Shown here piece after piece: positions 1-6,579 of a stretch of 6,579 nucleotides of DNA; position 1 is the first letter of the stretch, and each line of letters begins with the position of its first letter. The DNA lies in IMG/VR virus record IMGVR_UViG_2541047595_000016; one strand, 5' to 3'. This DNA is from a virus (Duplodnaviria > Heunggongvirae > Uroviricota > Caudoviricetes). The translations under genes and the position numbers were made by a program. The notes under the pieces are model-generated. The model had not been told where the DNA came from and did not search any database. It worked only from the letters and a program-made list of their open reading frames with translations.

Positions 1-36
1 ACGGACTTCGGGGGAAAAACGAGTATTTTTAGTCAT
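1..36 (-). CDS. IS3-family transposase OrfA, N-terminal 12 codons only (5' partial in window)
   Basis: Reverse complement of 1-36 = ATG ACT AAA AAT ACT CGT TTT TCC CCC GAA GTC CGT = MTKNTRFSPEVR; AGG/GAGG-containing leader upstream (GAGAAAGAGGTAAACAGG). Too short for the ORF track. Recognised from memory as the IS629/IS1203 OrfA start. Confidence 0.7.
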   Translation of the reverse strand, partial: MTKNTRFSPEVR

Positions 37-90
37 CCTGTTTACCTCTTTCTCAGGAAGTTTAGTCTCCAGGATTCCCGGGGCGGTTCA
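1..90 (-). mobile_element. Left end of an IS3-family insertion sequence (IS629/IS1203-like), partial; continues beyond the window start
   Basis: Minus strand 90->37 reads TGAACCGCCCCGGGAATCCTGGAGACTAAACTTCCTGAGAAAGAGGTAAACAGG, a 5'-TG... terminal inverted repeat that I recognise from memory as the IS629 end. It is followed by ATG at 36-34 opening MTKNTRFSPEVR, the IS629-type OrfA N-terminus. The element ends at TGA/TCA at position 90. The other end is outside the window, so target-site duplication cannot be checked. Confidence 0.75.
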
Positions 91-189
91 AACGTCTTGG
101 GCTACAAACCATGGTTGGCCATCGATAATGATGGAACGGATAGGGTTAACAGATTCAAATTTGAAGATGGCAGTTTGAGCATTAGCCAT
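91..189 (-). pseudogene. Bro-N-type phage antirepressor, N-terminal 33 codons, truncated by the IS insertion
   Basis: Minus-strand ATG at 189-187 preceded by GGAGA (204-200) with an 8-nt spacer. Translation MANAQTAIFKFESVNPIRSIIIDGQPWFVAQDV matches the Bro-N/antirepressor N-terminal pattern (F.F......R...IDG.PWFVA.DV). The next in-frame codon is the TGA formed by the IS terminus at 90-88. Confidence 0.65.
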
Positions 190-207
190 GGTGGTTATCT
201 CCACTTA

Positions 208-221
208 GTGATTTTAATCAC
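208..221. promoter_or_regulatory. 14-bp palindrome GTGATTTTAATCAC just upstream of the antirepressor RBS; candidate operator overlapping a -10-like TAAAAT
   Basis: Seen in sequence: 208-221 gtgattttaatcac has half-sites GTGATT/AATCAC. On the minus strand it contains TAAAAT about 13 nt upstream of the GGAGA Shine-Dalgarno. Regulatory role is inference only. Confidence 0.3.
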
Positions 222-345
222 CACCGCAACGCCAATTACTGGTGGTGAACTGGACAAGGTTGGCGTACCGGCCTAAGTGGTACCGGCGTCCTTTCGGACC
301 CCTGCCCAGCCCACCATAATTCGGATATAGCTGTGCTTAACGCAT

Positions 346-368
346 AAAAAAACCACGTCTGGCGTGGT
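346..368 (-). terminator. Rho-independent terminator for the minus-strand small gene
   Basis: Minus strand reads A-CCACG-CCAGA-CGTGG-TTTTTTT (stem 353-357/363-367, 5-nt loop, 7-T tract from 352-346). The run is on the correct side for minus-strand transcription arriving from the 505-777 gene. Confidence 0.6.
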
Positions 369-504
369 ATGCGCCACTTAGTAACCCGGGACGCCAATCC
401 CGGCACTGGATTTTGCCAGTGCCCGATTACTATGGCACAAGAGGAGTGCGATGTAAATTTACTGCAAAGGTAAATATAAGCACTCCTATTGGTAATTTCA
501 AATC

Positions 505-762
505 TTATCTGGTTTGTTTTCGTAATTGTTCGGCACAATAGTCGAGATGTGTTTGCAGATCCTGCATAGACATCTGTGAGCTGGTGACGTAGTTAATCAG
601 TGCAGTCAGTTCGGCAAGTGGGCCATCGACATTAAATCCATCCTTATCGAGATCCCGGAGTAATTTCATCAAGTGCGATCCCTCCACCAGTGACCTGACG
701 CCTCCCGGCGTGTGAATCCTTTCGGTAAATCCCTCTTCCAGTGGATAGTGATACTGCTGCAT
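505..762 (-). CDS. Small hypothetical protein (85 aa from ATG 762; 90 aa if ATG 777), apparently LexA/SOS-controlled; function unknown, possibly a small antirepressor-type regulator
   Basis: ORF-track ORF 505..777. The second ATG (762-760) has a well-spaced GGAGAAG Shine-Dalgarno; the first ATG (777-775) has none. A near-consensus LexA box lies at 785-800 immediately upstream. Stop TAA at 507-505, then a terminator at 346-368. I do not recognise the protein family by eye. Confidence 0.6.
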   Translation of the reverse strand: MQQYHYPLEEGFTERIHTPGGVRSLVEGSHLMKLLRDLDKDGFNVDGPLAELTALINYVTSSQMSMQDLQTHLDYCAEQLRKQTR

Positions 763-784
763 CTTAATCTTCTCCATGCAATAA

Positions 785-800
785 CTGTATATTTATACAG
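785..800. promoter_or_regulatory. LexA (SOS) box CTGT-N8-ACAG
   Basis: 783-802 = AACTGTATATTTATACAGTA versus the E. coli consensus TACTGTATATATATACAGTA (2 mismatches in 20; CTGT and ACAG intact with 8-bp AT-rich spacer). It contains -10-like hexamers on both strands (TATAAA on minus, TATATT on plus). It lies 7 bp from ATG 777 and 22 bp from ATG 762 of the minus-strand gene. Confidence 0.85.
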
Positions 801-958
801 TAGCAAATAATTTGTTTGCTATCCAGCACGTTTTGCAAATTACCTGAAAGGTAATATCTATTCATATTCACAGTCTTTCTATCCATATATGGTTTTTTGG
901 GTAATAGAATAACCAGATATGCGGCGCAACGGGTGCTGCGACTATCTGGAGATTTAAC

Positions 959-3421
959 ATGACGGTCTCAACCGAAGTTGACCACAACGAATACACAGGT
1001 AACGGCGTTACGACATCATTTCCGTATACCTTCCGTATTTTCAAAAAATCCGACCTGGTTGTTCAGGTGTCTGACCTTAACGGTAACGTTACAAAACTAG
1101 TGCTGGATGCTGGTTATACGGTAACAGGGGCGGGAACTTATAGTGGCGGTGCAGTGGTTCTTCCGTCGCCGCTTGCTGCTGGCTGGCGAATCACGATAGA
1201 GCGTGTGCTTGATGTGGTGCAGGAGACTGATCTTCGCAATCAGGGAAAATTTTTCCCCGAAGTTCATGAGGATGCATTTGACTACCTGACGATGCTGATC
1301 CAGCGATGTTTTGGGTGGTTCAGACGTGCATTGATGAAACCATCTTTGCTTGCAAAATATTACGATGCAAAGCAAAACAGAATATCTAACCTTGCCGATC
1401 CATCACTTGAGCAGGACGCTGTAAATAATCGCTCAATGCGTAATTATGTCGATGCTGCAATCGCCGGAGTTATTGGTGGTTTTGGTTGGTTTATTCAGTA
1501 TGGTTCTGGAGCGGTATACAGAACGTTCCAGGATAAGATGCGTGATGGTGTCAGCATTAAGGATTTTGGAGCTCAAAATGGAATCTTAAATGATAACAAG
1601 GATGCTTTTACAAAATCATTACATTCGTTTAGCAGTGTTTTTGTTCCGGAAGGGGTATTCAATACATCTTTAGTTTCTCTTTCACGTTGTGGCTTGTACG
1701 GAACAGGTGGGGGAACGATAAAACAGTATGACAGAGATGGTAATCATCTGGTTTTTAACATGCCCGATGGTGGCATGCTTAGTACGCTAACAATTATGGG
1801 AAATAAATCAGATGATAGTGTGCAGGGACACCAGGTGTCATTTTCAGGTGGCCATGATGTATCGGTTAAAAATATCAGATTTACAAATACGCGAGGACCA
1901 GGATTTAGCTTGATCGCTTATCCGGATAATGGTATTCCGTCAGGTTACATTGTTAGAGATATAAGAGGAGAGTATTTAGGGTTCGCAAATAATAAAAAAG
2001 CAGGTTGTGTGCTTTTTGATTCATCGCAAAATACGCTAATTGATGGTGTGATAGCCAGAAATTATCCTCAGTTTGGTGCAGTGGAACTTAAAACAGCAGC
2101 AAAATATAACATTGTCAGCAATGTTATTGGTGAAGAGTGTCAGCACGTTGTTTACAATGGAACTGAGACGGAAACTGCCCCAACGAATAATATCATTAGC
2201 AGTGTAATGGCTAACAACCCAAAATACGCCGCAGTAGTTGTTGGCAAGGGGACTGGTAACCTGATTTCGGATGTGCTGGTTGATTACTCTGAATCGGACG
2301 CAAAGCAGGCGCACGGCGTCACCGTTCAGGGAAATAATAATATTGCCAGTAATATTCTAATGACTGGGTGTGATGGGAAAAATGAATCAGGAGATCTGCA
2401 GACATCTACAACCATTCGTTTCTTAGATGCTGCACGCAGTAATTATGCGTCAATATTCCCCATGTATAGTTCTTCCGGCGTGGTTACCTTCGAGGAAGGG
2501 TGTATCAGGAACTTTGTTGAAATTAAACATCCGGGTGACAGAAATAATATTCTGAGTTCTGCATCAGCGGTGACTGGTATTTCCAGTATAGACGGCACTA
2601 CAAATAGCAATGTTGTTCACGTCCCTGCGCTTGGTCAGTACGTTGGGACTATGTCAGGGCGTTTTGAATGGTGGGTTAAATATTTTAACCTTGCTAACCA
2701 GACGCTTGTTTCTGCAGATAAATTCAGAATGCTTGCTGAAGGCGATGTATCTCTGGCTGTGGGAGGCGGTATAAGTTCGCAATTGAAATTATTCAATAGT
2801 GATAATACTAAAGGCACTATGTCGCTAATAAATGGAAATATTCGAATATCTACTGGAAATTCAGAATATATACAGTTTTCTGATTCAGCCATGACACCAT
2901 CGACAACGAATACTTATTCTCTTGGGTTGGCTGGTCGTGCATGGTCGGGGGGATTTACCCAGTCAGCGTTTACGGTGCTGTCCGATGCGCGTTTCAAGAC
3001 TGCTCCAGAGGTTATTGATGAGAAAATACTGGACGCATGGGAAAGAGTGGAATGGGTTTCATACCAGTACCTTGACAGGATCGAAGTGAAAGGTAAAGAC
3101 GGAGCAAGATGGCACTTTGGTGCAGTTGCGCAGCATGTTATCAGTGTATTTCAGAATGAAGGCATAGATGTGTCACGACTGGCATTTATCTGTTATGACA
3201 AGTGGAATGAGACCCCGGCAGAATACAGGGATGTGACGGAAGAAGAGCATTCTGCAGGAGTTTACCCACTTATACAGACAAAGGTTCTGGTACGCGAAGC
3301 CGTCGAGGCTGGTGAATGTTACGGTATCCGTTATGAAGAGGCTCTGATTCTGGAATCTGCGATGATGAGACGCAGGGTTAAAAAGCTGGAAGAGCAAGTT
3401 TTGCAATTAACAGGGAATTGA
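959..3421 (+). CDS. Phage tailspike/tail-fibre receptor-binding protein (820 aa): N-terminal virion-anchor domain, central right-handed beta-helix (probable polysaccharide depolymerase), C-terminal intramolecular chaperone/peptidase S74-type self-cleaving domain
   Basis: ATG 959 with GGAGA at 948-952 and a 6-nt spacer. Residues 1-120 (YTGNGVTTSFPYTFRIF...LVLDAGYTVT...) resemble the N-terminal anchor domain of T7 gp17-like fibres. Residues about 290-640 are Asn/Gly/Ser/Thr/Val-rich with asparagine-ladder runs typical of beta-helix tailspikes (NNIISSVMANN, QGNNNIASNILMTGCDG). Residues 675-680 SDARFK fit the S-D-x-R-x-K autoproteolysis motif (Ser nucleophile, Lys at +5) of endosialidase-type C-terminal chaperone domains. 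Stop TGA 3419-3421. Confidence 0.9.
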   Translation: MTVSTEVDHNEYTGNGVTTSFPYTFRIFKKSDLVVQVSDLNGNVTKLVLDAGYTVTGAGTYSGGAVVLPSPLAAGWRITIERVLDVVQETDLRNQGKFFPEVHEDAFDYLTMLIQRCFGWFRRALMKPSLLAKYYDAKQNRISNLADPSLEQDAVNNRSMRNYVDAAIAGVIGGFGWFIQYGSGAVYRTFQDKMRDGVSIKDFGAQNGILNDNKDAFTKSLHSFSSVFVPEGVFNTSLVSLSRCGLYGTGGGTIKQYDRDGNHLVFNMPDGGMLSTLTIMGNKSDDSVQGHQVSFSGGHDVSVKNIRFTNTRGPGFSLIAYPDNGIPSGYIVRDIRGEYLGFANNKKAGCVLFDSSQNTLIDGVIARNYPQFGAVELKTAAKYNIVSNVIGEECQHVVYNGTETETAPTNNIISSVMANNPKYAAVVVGKGTGNLISDVLVDYSESDAKQAHGVTVQGNNNIASNILMTGCDGKNESGDLQTSTTIRFLDAARSNYASIFPMYSSSGVVTFEEGCIRNFVEIKHPGDRNNILSSASAVTGISSIDGTTNSNVVHVPALGQYVGTMSGRFEWWVKYFNLANQTLVSADKFRMLAEGDVSLAVGGGISSQLKLFNSDNTKGTMSLINGNIRISTGNSEYIQFSDSAMTPSTTNTYSLGLAGRAWSGGFTQSAFTVLSDARFKTAPEVIDEKILDAWERVEWVSYQYLDRIEVKGKDGARWHFGAVAQHVISVFQNEGIDVSRLAFICYDKWNETPAEYRDVTEEEHSAGVYPLIQTKVLVREAVEAGECYGIRYEEALILESAMMRRRVKKLEEQVLQLTGN

Positions 3422-3493
3422 ACCGTAAATGGTGTGTTGTTGCGCGGTATACTTTTCCTGAAGCAGGGTGTTTGCAAATAAACGGGTTTCGTT

Positions 3494-3898
3494 ATGTCAT
3501 TCCAACTAACCAATGAAACTTCAAATCAGTGGCTTAGTGTTAGTTCTCTTGCTGCGGTTATTGCAGGTGTCCCTCCGGAGGTTGCTTTGGGGGCTTTGGC
3601 TGGGGCGGTAATTTTTGTTACCTCTGCGGTAGAGTATCCTATTCGTCGTCGTGTACTCTTGTCGATGCTTAGCTTTCTCTGCGGCCTTCTTTTTTATAAA
3701 CCAGCAGCATCAATTCTTATCGGCATAGCCAGCCTGATCCCTACCATCACGCAGGACTCTTTTGAAAAAGGGATTGTTTTCTCAGCTGGCGCATTCGTGT
3801 CAGCAATTGTTGCTGTGCGTATTGGTATATGGCTCTATCACCGTTCCGATAATCCACGCGAGTTAATTCCGGGGAGAAAAGACGATGGTAACGCATGA
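3494..3898 (+). CDS. Small multi-pass membrane protein (134 aa), first gene of the lysis cassette; holin or antiholin candidate
   Basis: Three to four hydrophobic segments (about 30-46, 54-68, 70-85, 93-115) and a charged C-terminal tail ([19 protein letters not shown]). Its stop overlaps the next gene's start (ATGGTAACGCATGA). Weak Shine-Dalgarno at ATG 3494; an internal TTG at 3587 has a better GGAGG site. Function is from context only. Confidence 0.55.
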   Translation: MSFQLTNETSNQWLSVSSLAAVIAGVPPEVALGALAGAVIFVTSAVEYPIRRRVLLSMLSFLCGLLFYKPAASILIGIASLIPTITQDSFEKGIVFSAGAFVSAIVAVRIGIWLYHRSDNPRELIPGRKDDGNA

Positions 3899-4193
3899 GT
3901 TTTTTTTGCTTATCACCAATGCAGTTATTTGTACTGGCATAGCAATTCGCGTTGTCACATTCCGGCGTAACGGATCTCAACATCGAAGATTGGGAGGGTG
4001 GCTTGCTTATTTCCTTATTGTTGCTGCGGCAAGTATTCCTGTTCGTGTCGTCTATGCAATCTGGTTACGCACGCCAATGGCTGTGGATTTATCTGAGGTC
4101 ATTATCAACGCTGTCATGCTGGCTGCGGTTATTAAAACGCGCGGTAACGTCGTTCAAATTTTTAAAGTATCGAGGTCTAAACATGGAGATTAA
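3885..4193 (+). CDS. Small three-TM membrane protein (102 aa), putative holin
   Basis: ATG 3885 preceded by GGGGAGA with a 7-nt spacer. Three hydrophobic helices (about 6-24, 36-61, 67-83) and a basic C-terminus ([19 protein letters not shown]). Its 3' end overlaps the endolysin start by 11 nt, implying translational coupling. Confidence 0.6.
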
Positions 4194-4812
4194 ACAATTC
4201 CAGCGAGCTGCTGGTATCAGCGAGGCACTGGCCGCACGCTGGATCTCGCATATAACTTCTGCGATGAAAGAGTTTGGTATCAGCAAACCCGAAGATCAGG
4301 CAATGTTTATTGCTCAGGTCGGGCATGAGTCTGGTGGCTTCAACCGGTTGCAGGAAAATTTCAACTACAGCGTCACCGGACTGGCTAACTTCGTTCGGGC
4401 TGGGCGTCTCACTCAGGGGCAGGCTAATGCACTGGGGCGCCGTGCTGGTGAACCACCATTGCCACTTGAGCGCCAGCGCGCGATCGCAAATCTGGTATAC
4501 AGCAAACGCATGGGGAACAATGCCCCTGGTGATGGCTGGAATTACCGAGGGCGCGGACTTATCCAGATTACCGGTTTGAATAACTATCGTGATTGCGGAA
4601 ACGGTCTGAAGGTTGACCTGCTGGAGAGCCCTGAACTGCTGGCGCAGGACGAATATGCGGCTCGTAGCGCGGCGTGGTTCTTCGCCAGCAAAGGATGCAT
4701 GAAGTATACCGGCGATATTGCACGTGTAACTCTGATTATCAATGGTGGCCGGAACGGCATCGACGACCGGCGAGCGCGGTACATCACTGCCAGTAAGGTG
4801 CTGGCGGTATGA
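4183..4812 (+). CDS. Endolysin, glycoside hydrolase family 19 (chitinase-class-I-like lysozyme), 209 aa
   Basis: ATG 4183 with GAGG at 4172-4175. GH19 motifs VGHESGGF and [15 protein letters not shown]. The two putative catalytic Glu fall at residues 49 and 58 by my count, which matches my memory of the numbering reported for the Salmonella phage SPN1S GH19 endolysin. N-terminus is not hydrophobic, so no SAR signal. The ORF-track start at 3952 is a TTG extension through the upstream gene and is not used. Confidence 0.9.
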
Positions 4813-5291
4813 TCTGGGCATTCGTAAAAGCATACTGGAAACAGTTGCTTATCGTGGCAGTGCTTGCTGTTCTGGTCATATCAGGAGTGGTTGCCTGGAA
4901 TATACACGGCAGTCGCCAGTACGATGCCGGGTATGCGCAGGCGGAAGAAGACCGCAAAGCCGAAGAAGACAAAGTTCGTCAGTACTACGAACAGGAGAAA
5001 GTGGCCAATGAACGTGAAGCTCAGCAGAGGATCGACCAGGCGCGCAATGATGCTCTTGATGCTGCCGCTCGCGCTGGCCGGTTGCAGCAACAACTCTTTG
5101 CCATCCGTGAGCAGCTCAGGCAGTATAACGCCATTGTCGGCGCTGGGACGTCAGCCGCAGACACCGGAGTTTTGCTTGCCGACGTGCTCAGCAAATCTCT
5201 CGAGAGAAACAGACAACTGGCAGAGTATGCTGACCGGGCAGCCGAAGCCGGAAGAGTCTGCGAAAAACAGTACGACACACTGACCAGATAG
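4809..5291 (+). CDS. Rz-type i-spanin (inner-membrane spanin subunit), 160 aa
   Basis: ATG overlaps the endolysin stop (ATGA at 4809-4812). N-terminal TM helix ([18 protein letters not shown]) followed by a long charged, Ala/Gln/Glu/Arg-rich predicted coiled-coil periplasmic domain with a single C-terminal Cys. Position right after the endolysin. Confidence 0.85.
5047..5283 (+). CDS. Rz1-type o-spanin (outer-membrane lipoprotein), 78 aa, wholly embedded in the +1 frame of the i-spanin gene
   Basis: ATGATG at 5047-5052 opens [13 protein letters not shown] with lipobox LAGC and Ser at +2 (outer-membrane sorting). The mature part is Pro/Ser-rich and short with Cys residues, typical of o-spanins. 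The ORF-track ORF 4864..5283 is the same frame over-extended upstream. Confidence 0.8.
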   Translation: MMLLMLPLALAGCSNNSLPSVSSSGSITPLSALGRQPQTPEFCLPTCSANLSRETDNWQSMLTGQPKPEESAKNSTTH

Positions 5292-5372
5292 CATGGCATT
5301 TTTCATGGTACTGATTTCCGGTGACGGTATATAAAACGGTACGAGAAAAATTCATCTTTGGAAAAATGTTAT

Positions 5373-5409
5373 CACTCAATTAGTTATGGTGTCCGTAAAT
5401 AATTGAGTG
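5373..5409. repeat. Perfect 10-bp inverted repeat (CACTCAATTA ... TAATTGAGTG) with 17-bp spacer, spanning the proposed phage-host junction
   Basis: Seen in sequence: 5373-5382 cactcaatta and 5400-5409 taattgagtg are exact reverse complements. The right arm overlaps the ATTGAGTGG codons of the GuaA-like C-terminus. Confidence 0.5.
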
Positions 5410-5416
5410 GGAATGA
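5402..5416 (+). other. guaA: Orphan 3' terminus of guaA (GMP synthase) coding sequence, ...IEWE-stop; candidate attR core region
   Basis: ATT GAG TGG GAA TGA = I-E-W-E-stop. GMP synthase ends ...PPATIEWE (from memory). The frame upstream is closed by TAA at 5396-5398 and no GuaA body is present; phage lysis genes are there instead. Fits a prophage integrated at the 3' end of guaA. Confidence 0.5.
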
Positions 5417-5440
5417 TTTGACCCTGCACTATGAATGAAC

Positions 5441-5470
5441 AAAACCCTCTGTTACTACAGAGGGTTTTTT
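5441..5470. terminator. Bidirectional Rho-independent terminator between the convergent lysis operon/guaA remnant and the minus-strand host genes
   Basis: AAAA-ACCCTCTGT-tact-ACAGAGGGT-TTTTTT: stem 5443-5452 pairs with 5457-5466 (GC-rich core of 7 bp), 4-nt loop, T-tract 5465-5470 on plus strand; a weaker T-rich run follows on the minus strand. Confidence 0.75.
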
Positions 5471-5508
5471 ATCTTCAAGAATTATAGGATTGAAGTTACT
5501 AACATCGA

Positions 5509-6048
5509 TTAATTAAACCAGCTGTCCGATTTGTTCTCTTCTGCTTTGCCCACGCTTTTCATCAGATCGCGACCGCCTTCAGTCATATTTCTGTTGGCGT
5601 CAGCTTCAGATTGCACCACATCGGTTTGCGCAGCTTTGTGCTTCAGTTCCTGATCGATAAATTCGTTTTCTCGCTTAACGCGGGCTTCTTCTTTCGCCAG
5701 CGCCAGTTTTTGTTTCTGAATCTCTAAGCTGCGTAGCTCATCTTCATAACTTTGATCGCGTTTTTTGTCCGCAGAGGCTTCGGCGTCCAGTTTATCCTGA
5801 CGAGCTTTCTTATTTGCCGCTGCCGTTGCCGCTCTTTTGTTAGCGGCGGCCTGGGCATTTGCGCGACGTTGCTTCTCTTGCTGGATTTCCCTGTTGCGCT
5901 CCGCGACCCATTCGTCATGCTGCCTTTGCTCTTCATTTTTACCTTGCTGTTCCGCTTCTGCGACAGCAGAGAGTTGATCCTGCAATGATGAGGCGATAGC
6001 CGGATAGCTTAAGGAGGCTAAGATGGCGCAAAGAAAAACTTTCTTCAT
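5509..6048 (-). CDS. yfgI: Secreted (Sec signal peptide) Lys/Arg/Glu/Gln-rich coiled-coil periplasmic protein, 179 aa; host gene, tentatively YfgI
   Basis: ATG 6048-6046 with AGGAGGAG Shine-Dalgarno. Signal peptide MKKVFLCAILASLSYPAIA then an A-x-A cleavage site. The mature protein is highly charged and low-complexity (QRRANAQAAANKRAATAAANKKARQDK...). The name rests on my memory that E. coli yfgI encodes a 179-aa protein and lies beside guaA with yfgH; the sequence itself was not verified. Confidence 0.55.
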   Translation of the reverse strand: MKKVFLCAILASLSYPAIASSLQDQLSAVAEAEQQGKNEEQRQHDEWVAERNREIQQEKQRRANAQAAANKRAATAAANKKARQDKLDAEASADKKRDQSYEDELRSLEIQKQKLALAKEEARVKRENEFIDQELKHKAAQTDVVQSEADANRNMTEGGRDLMKSVGKAEENKSDSWFN

Positions 6049-6063
6049 GACTCCTCCTGATTA

Positions 6064-6579
6064 TTAGCTCTTTTCAGGACATTTGGTATTTGGCTGAATA
6101 CGCGTTTCGTTATACGTCGTGGTAATAACAACGGCTAAACCTGTCGTAAACTGGCACTCTTTACCCACCTGGGTAGAGGTATACACTTTGGTGCCTTCCT
6201 TATAGGTTAAAGAAACACCTTCCACTAAGGTTTTATCATTCACCATAGAACCCGCTGCCGCGCCTACAGCTCCGCCGCCAACTGCACCTGCCGTCGTTCC
6301 GGAATTGCTGCCAGACCCGACGTTGTGGCCGATAACACCGCCAGCGACTGCGCCAATAAGCGCGCCGAAGGCTTGTGCGTTCCGTTTATTTTGGGAGTTG
6401 TCTACGGCAACTTTTGCGGGAAGAATGGAAATAATATTAACGGTTTTAGTTTCTTGTTTGGTATTCAGTTGATCGGTTTGATAAACATCGGCAGCATGAT
6501 CGTCAGCATTTGACTGGCATCCTGCCAGAGTGAATGACGCTAACATTGCCACAGGCAGAAGACATTTTTTAAATTTCAT
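6064..6579 (-). CDS. yfgH: Glycine-zipper outer-membrane lipoprotein (SlyB/Pcp-like), 171 aa as read; host gene, tentatively YfgH
   Basis: ATG at 6579-6577, exactly at the window edge (RBS not visible; the true start could be one or more codons further upstream). Signal peptide with lipobox LAGC and Gln at +2. Gly/Ala-rich glycine-zipper segment (FGALIGAVAGGVIGHNVGSG...AGAVGGGAVGAAAGS). Lies 15 bp upstream of the 5509-6048 gene, so probably an operon. The name is from memory of the K-12 yfgH-yfgI-guaA neighbourhood; unverified. Confidence 0.5.
   Translation of the reverse strand: MKFKKCLLPVAMLASFTLAGCQSNADDHAADVYQTDQLNTKQETKTVNIISILPAKVAVDNSQNKRNAQAFGALIGAVAGGVIGHNVGSGSNSGTTAGAVGGGAVGAAAGSMVNDKTLVEGVSLTYKEGTKVYTSTQVGKECQFTTGLAVVITTTYNETRIQPNTKCPEKS

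What the first reader, a model, noticed from the sequence alone, without database searches (positions are those of the whole stretch)
1..189. IS629-like insertion truncating a Bro-N antirepressor gene after codon 33
The antirepressor ORF has a good RBS and ATG (189) and a canonical Bro-N N-terminus, then stops at the TGA that forms the IS terminus at position 90. The prophage has therefore lost an antirepressor and possibly much more, if the IS insertion came with a deletion. The neighbouring SOS-controlled small gene and the antirepressor promoter region are left intact. IS629 is abundant in O157-type E. coli and Shigella, which hints at the host background.
Basis: partly seen in the sequence, partly recalled or inferred. 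Interest (0 to 1): 0.5.

Follow-up and report, generated by a model that had tools for sequence, protein, structure and literature searches.

The report
IS629 insertion truncating a prophage antirepressor gene
A common E. coli jumping gene (IS629) has landed in a prophage's second, RNA-gated antirepressor gene and cut it to 33 codons, while the main SOS-controlled antirepressor next door is intact; this is an ordinary gene-inactivation event.

Summary
Window 1-90 is the first 90 nt of IS629 (left inverted repeat plus 12 transposase OrfA codons, minus strand). It is 90/90 identical to copies elsewhere and 89/90 to an annotated 1310-bp IS629. The Bro-N gene (ATG at 189, minus strand) runs 33 codons and stops at TGA 90-88, which is the IS terminus. 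A draft E. coli assembly (L006) is 100% identical to window 89-6579. It carries the uninterrupted 236-aa gene, where codon 34 is TGT. No searched collection holds either junction, so simple insertion versus IS-mediated deletion cannot be decided.

- The "SOS-controlled small gene" (505-777) is itself the characterised antirepressor of epsilon15-like phages. It is 89% identical to SPC32H Ant (PDB 5D50) and is intact behind a LexA box.
- The truncated gene is a second antirepressor: Bro-N fused to an Ant-like C-terminal domain. It sits behind a P1-immI-like isrK/C4 antisense-RNA module (238-435) whose target overlaps its ribosome-binding site.
- IS629-like ends occur in 66% of complete E. coli genomes, so they do not indicate an O157 or Shigella host.

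The event is ordinary and of low interest.

The parts
1..90 (-). Left end of IS629 (IS3 family). The 25-bp left inverted repeat occupies 90-66 (TGAACCGCCCCGGGAATCCTGGAGA). The OrfA start codon is at 36-34, and OrfA codons 1-12 run to position 1. The rest of the element lies outside the window.
   Evidence: 90/90 identity to IS629 copies in L015 and L002. 89/90 identity to the annotated 1310-bp IS629 in L014, whose end coincides with window 90. The OrfA N-terminus is MTKNTRFSPEVR.
88..90 (-). TGA stop codon created by the IS terminus. It replaces TGT (Cys34) of the intact gene.
   Evidence: Junction alignment of the window against L001 and L006.
91..189 (-). Remnant (codons 1-33) of the second antirepressor gene. 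The intact form is 236 aa: a Bro-N domain plus an Ant-like C-terminal domain.
   Evidence: 100% nucleotide identity to the intact genes in L001 and L006. Pfam Bro-N hit on the intact protein, E = 9.6e-20. Residues 151-228 are 42% identical to the small Ant and match PDB 5D50_E at E = 1.2e-13.
199..235 (-). Translation-initiation region of the truncated gene, carrying the predicted C4 targets. b2 is UUGGCGU (235-229). a2 is CUAAGUGG (208-201) and overlaps the Shine-Dalgarno GGAG (202-199).
   Evidence: Exact complements of the C4 motifs found by motif search and by the repeat finder (pairs I2 and I4).
238..321 (-). C4-type antisense RNA (RF01695). a' (CCACUUAG) lies in a hairpin loop and b' (ACGCCAA) in a single-stranded stretch.
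   Evidence: Rfam score 66 bits against a gathering score of 45, full-length model. The MFE fold exposes both motifs.
346..435 (-). isrK-like RNA (346-422) with its intrinsic terminator (368-352 plus a U run). It overlaps the a1/b1 decoy targets of C4 (383-435), where a1 starts at 381 and b1 at 397.
   Evidence: Rfam isrK 67.7 bits against a gathering score of 50. c4-a1b1 scores 44.1 bits, just under its gathering score of 46.7. The terminator was found by scan and the motifs by search.
473..501 (-). Promoter-like site TTGAAA-17-TATATT for the isrK/C4/ant2 transcript. It is flanked by a 12-nt inverted repeat (438-449 / 480-491) that could be an operator.
   Evidence: Consensus scan, 10 of 12 positions; inverted repeat I1. 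The site count is not above that of shuffled sequence, so this is inferred only.
505..777 (-). Intact primary antirepressor Ant (90-aa ORF; RefSeq and Prodigal aa from ATG 762). It is the homologue of SPC32H Ant.
   Evidence: PDB 5D50_E 'Anti-repressor protein', E = 1.7e-47. 89.2% aa identity to the annotated ant of SPC32H. phrog_450.
783..802 (+). LexA box (AACTGTATATTTATACAGTA) immediately upstream of the small Ant gene.
   Evidence: The only match in the window to the SOS-box consensus; none of 200 shuffles gave a match.

Best explanation
The window is the right arm of a phiV10/epsilon15-like (Uetakevirus) prophage lying next to yfgI-yfgH in E. coli. An IS629 element has transposed into codon 34 of the prophage's second antirepressor gene, in the same orientation as that gene. 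IS629 belongs to the IS3 family, moves by copy-out/paste-in, and makes 3-4 bp target duplications. The IS terminus TGA becomes the stop codon. Only a 33-residue peptide can therefore be made, lacking about 80% of the Bro-N domain and the entire Ant-like C-terminal domain, so the gene is dead.

The upstream control elements are untouched: the promoter-like site, the isrK-like leader with a1/b1, the C4 antisense RNA, and the a2/b2 targets over the ribosome-binding site. The primary, LexA-controlled Ant (SPC32H type) is also untouched. DNA-damage induction via LexA, Ant and Rep is therefore predicted to survive, and only the RNA-gated antirepressor tier is lost. Genes downstream of ant in the ancestral allele are probably silenced by polarity.

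Shown: the identity and exact position of the IS end, the truncation, the existence of the pre-insertion allele, the RNA family matches, and the homology of both Ant proteins.

Inferred: that the whole IS and the rest of ant lie to the left (simple insertion, my estimate about 0.7); that C4 represses ant2 translation as it does in P1; and that the prophage stays SOS-inducible.
For: - IS end: 90/90 and 89/90 identity, with the boundary equal to the annotated IS629 end, and OrfA codons present.
- Pre-insertion allele: L006 is 6491/6491 identical to window 89-6579 and has the intact 236-aa gene. 156 complete genomes carry the intact locus and none carries the junction.
- Domain content of the intact protein.
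- Conserved C-terminal domain: every alternative cassette protein in this slot (Bro-N 236, Bro-N 230, AntA 218, ORF6N 239) keeps the same Ant-like C-terminal domain.
- RNA module: C4 and isrK score above their Rfam gathering scores, and both C4 motifs are exactly complementary to sites over the ant RBS.
- Primary antirepressor: the small Ant matches PDB 5D50 and SPC32H ant, with a LexA box upstream.
- Literature: LexA-controlled Ant inactivating Rep in SPC32H (PMC7380047 and PMC9638917); C4 control of ant in P1 immI (PMC8201110); IS629 target duplications of 3-4 bp (PMC3271280).
Against: Only 90 nt of the IS are in the window. A full-length element, the second junction, a target duplication and the remaining 203 ant codons are all unseen. 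Neither the left junction nor the predicted right junction was found in viral, genome or metagenome contigs or in complete E. coli genomes. In O157 genomes only 21 of 47 IS629 sites show a target duplication, so rearranged contexts are common. No expression or induction data exist for this prophage. The c4-a1b1 match is slightly below its gathering score. The promoter call is a consensus match at a frequency no higher than in shuffled sequence.
Confidence: 0.9

Rival explanations
1. This is IS-mediated deletion or rearrangement rather than simple insertion. The IS629 end abuts codon 33, but the rest of ant, and possibly the prophage's left arm, has been removed or moved. Possible routes are adjacent deletion, recombination between two IS629 copies, or IEE-type excision events.
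For: The window stops inside the IS, so nothing excludes this. Only 21 of 47 IS629 sites in O157 genomes keep a target duplication, and IS629-associated deletions are well documented (PMC3271280; PMC9943667 abstract). The predicted right junction was not found anywhere.
Against: The left junction was not found anywhere either, so the absence of the right junction says nothing. The flanking 6.5 kb has zero differences from the uninterrupted allele. That argues for a very recent event, which is most simply a plain insertion.
Confidence: 0.27
2. The junction is an assembly artefact. A contig end was extended into a collapsed multi-copy IS, or two fragments were joined as a chimera, and the gene is intact in the real genome.
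For: The window begins inside a repeat present at a median of 3 and up to 50 places per genome. That is typical of short-read contig ends.
Against: The switch from ant to IS occurs exactly at the terminal nucleotide of the element. A true transposition junction predicts this; a random chimera does not, since it would need a 1-in-1310 coincidence on the IS side alone. Repeat-induced contig breaks preserve true junctions.
Confidence: 0.03
3. The 33-codon ORF is the natural full length of a small gene, and the IS lies merely downstream of it.
For: None beyond the presence of a start, an RBS and a stop.
Against: Homologues identical up to the junction continue for 236 aa. The exact 236-aa protein is on 812 contigs. 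The exact 33-aa product is on record only once, as a partial gene cut by the end of a metagenome contig.
Confidence: 0.01

Closest known systems
IS629 (IS3 family; isoforms IS1203 and IS3411), which causes insertional gene inactivation in E. coli and Shigella
   Same: The left inverted repeat and first 90 nt are identical or 1 nt different. The terminus is TG.... OrfA starts 55 nt from the end. Insertion is into a prophage gene, as in the annotated Stx-phage copies.
   Different: This particular insertion site is absent from 5426 complete E. coli genomes and from the contig collections searched. Only one end is visible, so length, orfB, the right repeat and the target duplication are unverified.
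SPC32H / epsilon15-type antirepression: LexA-controlled Ant that disassembles the Rep tetramer (PDB 5D50)
   Same: The small gene at 505-777 is 89% identical to SPC32H Ant. It lies in the same place, divergent from the tailspike gene, with a LexA box upstream.
   Different: SPC32H has only this one Ant and no C4 module. The window's phage, like phiV10, carries an extra downstream module with a second, fused Ant-domain protein, and that protein is what the IS destroyed.
Phage P1/P7 immI operon (c4 antisense RNA - icd - ant) and the Gifsy-1 isrK-orf45-anrP locus
   Same: The order is the same: promoter, a1/b1, C4 RNA, a2/b2 over an RBS, antirepressor gene. Both Rfam families are matched full-length. 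There is an isrK-type terminator that the transcript must read through to reach the antirepressor.
   Different: The C4 target overlaps the RBS of the antirepressor gene itself; I found no icd/orf45-like coupled upstream ORF. The antirepressor is unrelated to P1 Ant1/2 and carries the SPC32H-type Ant domain. None of the regulation has been tested for this phage group.
Bro-N / KilA-N-type phage antirepressors (for example phiV10 gp23)
   Same: The intact allele has a Pfam Bro-N domain and is 75% identical to phiV10p23 over residues 2-186.
   Different: Only 17 of the 96 Bro-N profile positions remain in the window, so the remnant itself does not score as Bro-N.

Membership tests
IS629 (IS3 family) | Terminal inverted repeat of about 25 bp beginning 5'-TG, matching the IS629 IRL | tested here: met
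   Window 90-66 is TGAACCGCCCCGGGAATCCTGGAGA, identical to the IRL of the annotated IS629 in LC567824.
IS629 (IS3 family) | orfA starting about 55 nt inside the left end, with IS629 OrfA sequence | tested here: met
   ATG at 36-34. The 12 codons MTKNTRFSPEVR are nucleotide-identical to copies annotated as IS629 OrfA, or differ at 1 nt. Only 12 codons are visible.
IS629 (IS3 family) | Full element of about 1310 bp with orfA/orfB frameshift, DDE transposase and a matching right inverted repeat | not testable with these tools
   The window ends 90 nt into the element, and no held sequence contains this junction.
IS629 (IS3 family) | 3-4 bp direct target duplication flanking the element | not testable with these tools
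   The predicted right junction (IS end + GTT or CGTT + TGTAGTGCG...) was searched for and not found. The duplication size is taken from PMC3271280.
Bro-N domain proteins (PF02498) | Match to the Bro-N profile above the gathering score | tested here: met
   The intact allele scores 71.5 bits against a cut-off of 25.6, over residues 17-112. The 33-aa remnant alone gives no hit because 80% of the domain is missing.
SPC32H-type antirepressor Ant (PDB 5D50) | Sequence homology to the crystallised Ant across its length | tested here: met
   Small protein 505-777: E = 1.7e-47 over residues 7-89. Intact ant2 C-terminal domain: E = 1.2e-13 over residues 155-231.
SPC32H-type antirepressor Ant (PDB 5D50) | LexA operator at the promoter | tested here: met
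   There is one SOS box at 783-802, directly upstream of the small Ant gene and unique in the window. There is none upstream of ant2.
SPC32H-type antirepressor Ant (PDB 5D50) | Binding to and inactivation of the cognate Rep repressor | not testable with these tools
   This requires biochemistry or genetics, and the repressor gene is outside the window.
C4 antisense RNA / immI-type control (RF01695, CL00128) | Covariance-model match above the gathering score | tested here: met
   66 bits against 45, model positions 1-87 of 87.
C4 antisense RNA / immI-type control (RF01695, CL00128) | Two exposed motifs (a', b') complementary to an upstream pair (a1, b1) and to a downstream pair (a2, b2) covering an RBS | tested here: met
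   a' at 280 pairs with a1 at 381 and a2 at 208. b' at 265 pairs with b1 at 397 and b2 at 235. a2 overlaps SD 202-199. The c4-a1b1 model scores 44.1 bits, just below its 46.7 cut-off.
isrK (RF01394) | Covariance-model match above the gathering score, with a 3' intrinsic terminator | tested here: met
   67.7 bits against 50, at 346-422. The terminator hairpin is at 368-352, followed by a U run.

The most novel reading that the evidence does not exclude
E. coli phiV10-like prophages may run a two-tier antirepression system built on one shared Rep-binding domain. Tier 1 is the standalone SPC32H-type Ant under LexA. Tier 2 is a swappable cassette protein (an N-terminal Bro-N, AntA or ORF6N domain fused to the same Ant-like C-terminal domain) gated by an isrK/C4 antisense RNA rather than by LexA. 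On this reading, the IS629 insertion selectively removes the RNA-gated tier. It also places the IS629 transposase gene, in the sense orientation, directly downstream of the C4-controlled promoter, so that transposase transcription could become coupled to prophage derepression.
Probability: 0.35. Interest if true: 0.35.

Novelty: new member of a known kind. Interest (0 to 1): 0.15.

Why it matters
As found, it matters little. It is one more IS629 knockout of an accessory prophage gene, useful mainly as a strain marker and as a warning that the contig breaks at a repeat.

Its modest value is in correct annotation. The prophage should not be scored as having lost its SOS antirepressor, because the SPC32H-type Ant and its LexA box are intact. 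What is lost is an accessory, RNA-gated antirepressor.

The side observation may be worth a specialist's look. Bro-N, AntA and ORF6N cassette proteins behind a C4 RNA all carry a domain homologous to the crystallised Ant. That gives a concrete, testable hypothesis for what these widespread 'BRO family' prophage proteins do.

Tried and rejected
1. I looked for the source or any other carrier of the junction. The exact 36-nt left junction is absent from viral, genome (GTDB representatives) and metagenome contigs. No complete E. coli genome covers window 1-1000 across the junction.

2. I looked for the predicted right junction (IS629 right end + 3-4 nt + TGTAGTGCGCTGCG). It is absent from the same three collections. 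Insertion versus deletion therefore stays open.

3. I ran exact-product look-ups. The 33-aa product is on record once, as a partial gene at the end of an ENA metagenome contig (L003). That contig differs from the window at 26 positions, so it is a different lineage. Its end at the same nucleotide is most likely selection by the query itself. The 38-aa GTG-start version is not on record.

4. I tested whether an N-terminally truncated product (M56 to the end, 181 aa) marks the missing half. It exists (CCP96000.1 in E. coli ATCC 23506, plus three short contigs). However, those contigs carry a different, IS-free rearrangement that replaces the first ~8 codons. This is a dead end for the present allele.

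5. Pfam and NCBIfam gave nothing for the small protein. PHROGs and the PDB sequence search identified it.

6. A global RNA duplex energy of C4 against the ant leader was not clearly better than shuffles (-35.4 against -27.4 +/- 4.4). The argument therefore rests on the two exact motifs and the Rfam matches, not on that number.

7. The Kim & Ryu 2013 paper (PMC3807360) is not held. Its content is cited second-hand from PMC7380047 and PMC9638917.

Full report
**1. What is in the sequence**

Read on the minus strand, window 204-88 contains a Shine-Dalgarno GGAG (202-199), an ATG at 189-187, and 33 sense codons (MANAQTAIFKFESVNPIRSIIIDGQPWFVAQDV). A TGA follows at 90-88. From position 90 down to 1 the sequence is TGAACCGCCCCGGGAATCCTGGAGA..., followed by ATG (36-34) ACT AAA AAT ACT CGT TTT TCC CCC GAA GTC CGT, which translates as MTKNTRFSPEVR.

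**2. The left 90 nt are the end of IS629**

- A megablast of window 1-90 against phage records gives 169 records at 95% identity or better, E = 6e-40 for the best. Two of them are 100% identical (phi456 and a phage 21 int fragment). Many Stx phages are 98.9% identical, and there the matched feature is annotated 'IS3 family IS629' or 'IS629 transposase OrfA'.
- In LC567824 the depositors annotate a 1310-bp IS629 mobile element with a 4-bp target duplication. Its last base aligns with window position 90, and the only difference is at window position 10.
- An E. coli IAI39 copy labelled 'IS3-like element IS629 family transposase' by PGAP is 90/90 identical.
- The window therefore holds the 25-bp left inverted repeat and the first 12 codons of orfA. 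The IS lies in the same orientation as the interrupted gene.
- With 90 nt, IS629 cannot be separated from its isoforms IS1203 and IS3411 (PMC3271280).

**3. The interrupted gene and its pre-insertion allele**

- Against 5426 complete E. coli genomes, window 89-1000 is found uninterrupted in 156 genomes. No genome covers the junction.
- In strain SURV0398 the gene is annotated as a 236-aa BRO-N domain protein starting at the same ATG. Its sequence reads ...GCC CAA GAC GTT TGT AGT GCG..., where the window has ...GCC CAA GAC GTT TGA ACC GCC....
- An exact-protein look-up with the tailspike brought in ten draft assemblies. One of them, L006 (GCA_012738635.1), is 100.000% identical to window 89-6579 (6491 nt, no mismatch and no gap) and has the intact 236-aa gene. 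That is the pre-insertion allele, and the event is evolutionarily very recent.
- The exact intact protein is on record on 812 contigs. The idea that the family naturally ends at residue 33 is therefore refuted.
- The break lies at the terminal nucleotide of the IS, which is the signature of transposition rather than of a chimeric assembly.

**4. What cannot be decided**

Answering it needs DNA left of position 1.

- I searched for the exact left junction and for the predicted right junction (IS right end, 3-4 nt, then TGTAGTGCGCTGCG) in viral, genome-representative and metagenome contigs, without a hit.
- The exact 33-aa product exists once, as a gene cut by the end of a 1.1-kb metagenome contig (L003) from a different lineage with 26 differences.
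- A 181-aa N-terminally truncated product does exist (CCP96000.1, E. coli ATCC 23506, and three short contigs). Those contigs show a different, IS-free rearrangement of the 5' end.
- IS629 makes 3-4 bp duplications, but only 21 of 47 sites in O157 genomes retain one (PMC3271280).
- Weighing that against the zero divergence of the flank, I estimate about 0.7 for simple insertion and about 0.27 for deletion or rearrangement.

**5. Context: which phage, and what the neighbours are**

- The window matches phiV10, TL-2011b and other Uetakevirus (epsilon15-like) phages over the tail-fibre N-terminus and the lysis genes.
- The locus lies next to yfgI-yfgH-yfgG in every relative.
- The gene order, annotated from the relatives, is:
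  - IS end
  - ant remnant
  - RNA module
  - small gene
  - tailspike, divergent from the genes before it (959-3421)
  - two holin-like genes
  - GH19 endolysin
  - spanin
  - host yfgI and yfgH

**6. The 'SOS-controlled small gene' is the known antirepressor**

- The 90-aa ORF at 505-777 has no Pfam or NCBIfam family. It does match PDB 5D50 chain E, 'Anti-repressor protein', at E = 1.7e-47.
- It is 89% identical to the gene annotated ant in Salmonella phage SPC32H, at the same position next to the tailspike gene.
- For several Salmonella prophages, SPC32H among the cited cases, SOS induction works through a LexA-controlled Ant rather than repressor cleavage. SPC32H Ant is a tetramer that breaks the Rep tetramer (Kim & Ryu 2013 and Kim et al. 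2016, as summarised in PMC7380047 and PMC9638917).
- A single SOS box, AACTGTATATTTATACAGTA, sits at 783-802 just upstream. No shuffle produced such a match.
- This primary antirepressor and its operator are intact.

**7. The truncated gene is a second, RNA-gated antirepressor**

*RNA elements between the two genes*
- Rfam finds an isrK-type RNA (346-422, 67.7 bits against a gathering score of 50).
- It also finds a C4 antisense RNA (238-321, 66 bits against 45).
- It also finds the a1/b1 target element (383-435, 44.1 bits against 46.7).
- All three are on the minus strand.

*C4 motifs and their targets*
- The C4 fold exposes CCACUUAG in a hairpin loop and ACGCCAA in a single-stranded stretch.
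- Exact complements occur twice: upstream (a1 at 381, b1 at 397) and downstream (b2 at 235, a2 at 208).
- a2 overlaps the GGAG of the ant ribosome-binding site.

*Comparison with known systems*
- This is the architecture of the P1/P7 immI operon, where C4 RNA keeps ant silent (PMC8201110).
- It is also the architecture of the Gifsy-1 isrK-orf45-anrP locus, where transcription must read through the isrK terminator to reach the antirepressor (PMC4825925).

*Other signals*
- A TTGAAA-17-TATATT promoter-like site (501-473) and the isrK terminator (368-352) were found by scan.

**8. Domain logic**

- The intact 236-aa protein has Bro-N at residues 17-112. Residues 151-228 are 42% identical to the small Ant and match 5D50 at E = 1.2e-13.
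- In the relatives, the slot behind C4 holds different proteins: Bro-N 236 aa, Bro-N 230 aa, AntA 218 aa and ORF6N 239 aa.
- All of these share the same C-terminal 100-125 residues, at 74-85% identity to the 236-aa protein. Only the N-terminal domain is exchanged.
- The conserved part, and by homology the Rep-targeting part, is therefore exactly what the IS removes.
- SPC32H and epsilon15 have only one Ant-domain gene. E. coli and some Klebsiella relatives have two or three (places per record).

**9. Consequence (inferred)**

- The insertion abolishes the accessory antirepressor. It probably also silences the 211-aa gene that follows it in L006, through polarity.
- It leaves LexA-Ant-Rep induction and all visible late genes (tailspike, lysis cassette) intact and identical to an uninterrupted prophage.
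- By analogy with P1, the lost function would matter mainly at infection or superinfection, not for maintenance. This is untested.

**10. Host inference**

- The same IS end occurs in 3600 of 5426 complete E. coli genomes, with a median of 3 copies. It is therefore not diagnostic of O157 or Shigella.
- The closest loci come from human and animal E. coli isolates and draft assemblies.

**11. Verdict**

It is a new insertion allele of a thoroughly known kind. Interest is low (0.15). The only mildly novel element is the two-tier antirepressor architecture noticed on the way.

Noticed in passing
window 238-435 (minus strand): An isrK-type RNA, the a1/b1 targets and a C4 antisense RNA lie between the two antirepressor genes. 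The second target pair sits over the ant RBS (201-235). This is a P1-immI-like control module in an epsilon15-like podovirus prophage.
   Followed up: yes
window 505-777 (minus strand) and LexA box 783-802: The small gene, annotated 'hypothetical' in RefSeq and in most phage records, is the homologue of SPC32H Ant (PDB 5D50, E = 1.7e-47; 89% identity). It is the intact, LexA-controlled primary antirepressor.
   Followed up: yes
L004 8014-8733, L012 8573-9229, L013 7709-8401, L006 8521-9231 (slot corresponding to window <205): The slot behind C4 is a swappable cassette. Bro-N, AntA and ORF6N proteins all share one C-terminal domain (74-85% identity to the 236-aa protein), and that domain is about 42% identical to the standalone Ant. 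Only the N-terminal domain is exchanged. In some loci a 168-aa gene or a plus-strand 242-aa gene is also inserted there.
   Followed up: partly
L018 1-404 and L019 1-181; protein CCP96000.1 (E. coli O10:K5:H4 ATCC 23506): There is an independent, IS-free inactivation of the same ant gene. The first ~8 codons and the upstream region are replaced by DNA that lies elsewhere in L006, leaving a 181-aa ORF called from Met56. The protein clusters also contain shorter members of 104, 150, 214 and 215 aa.
   Followed up: partly
L003 position 1100 (= window 90): A 1.1-kb ENA metagenome scaffold from a different lineage of this prophage ends at exactly the nucleotide where the IS begins in the window. 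This is probably an effect of searching for the exact 33-aa product. It could also reflect an assembly-graph branch at the same site.
   Followed up: partly
window about 5418-5508 and 5509-6579: Homology to free phage genomes (phiV10 and others) stops at 5418, so the prophage/chromosome boundary (attR) lies about there. yfgI (5509-6048) and yfgH (6064-6579) are host genes. The GenBank record of phage TL-2011b extends through these host genes and annotates them as phage genes.
   Followed up: no
window 4864-5283 (plus strand, inside 4809-5291): An embedded ORF in the +1 frame carries a lipoprotein signal (..[11 protein letters not shown]..). It is the Rz1-type o-spanin nested in the Rz-like DUF2514 gene, as annotated in phiV10.
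   Followed up: no
window 959-3421 (plus strand): The 820-aa tailspike has a conserved N-terminal adaptor and a C-terminal Peptidase_S74 chaperone domain. In otherwise near-identical prophages the central part is exchanged for endosialidase, GH28-like or other receptor-binding domains.
   Followed up: no
window 438-449 / 480-491 and 801-821: There are two unexplained palindromes. One is a 12-nt inverted repeat bracketing the -10 region of the predicted immI-type promoter. The other is a 10-nt palindrome (TAGCAAATAA T TTGTTTGCTA) immediately upstream of the LexA box. Both are candidate repressor operators.
   Followed up: no
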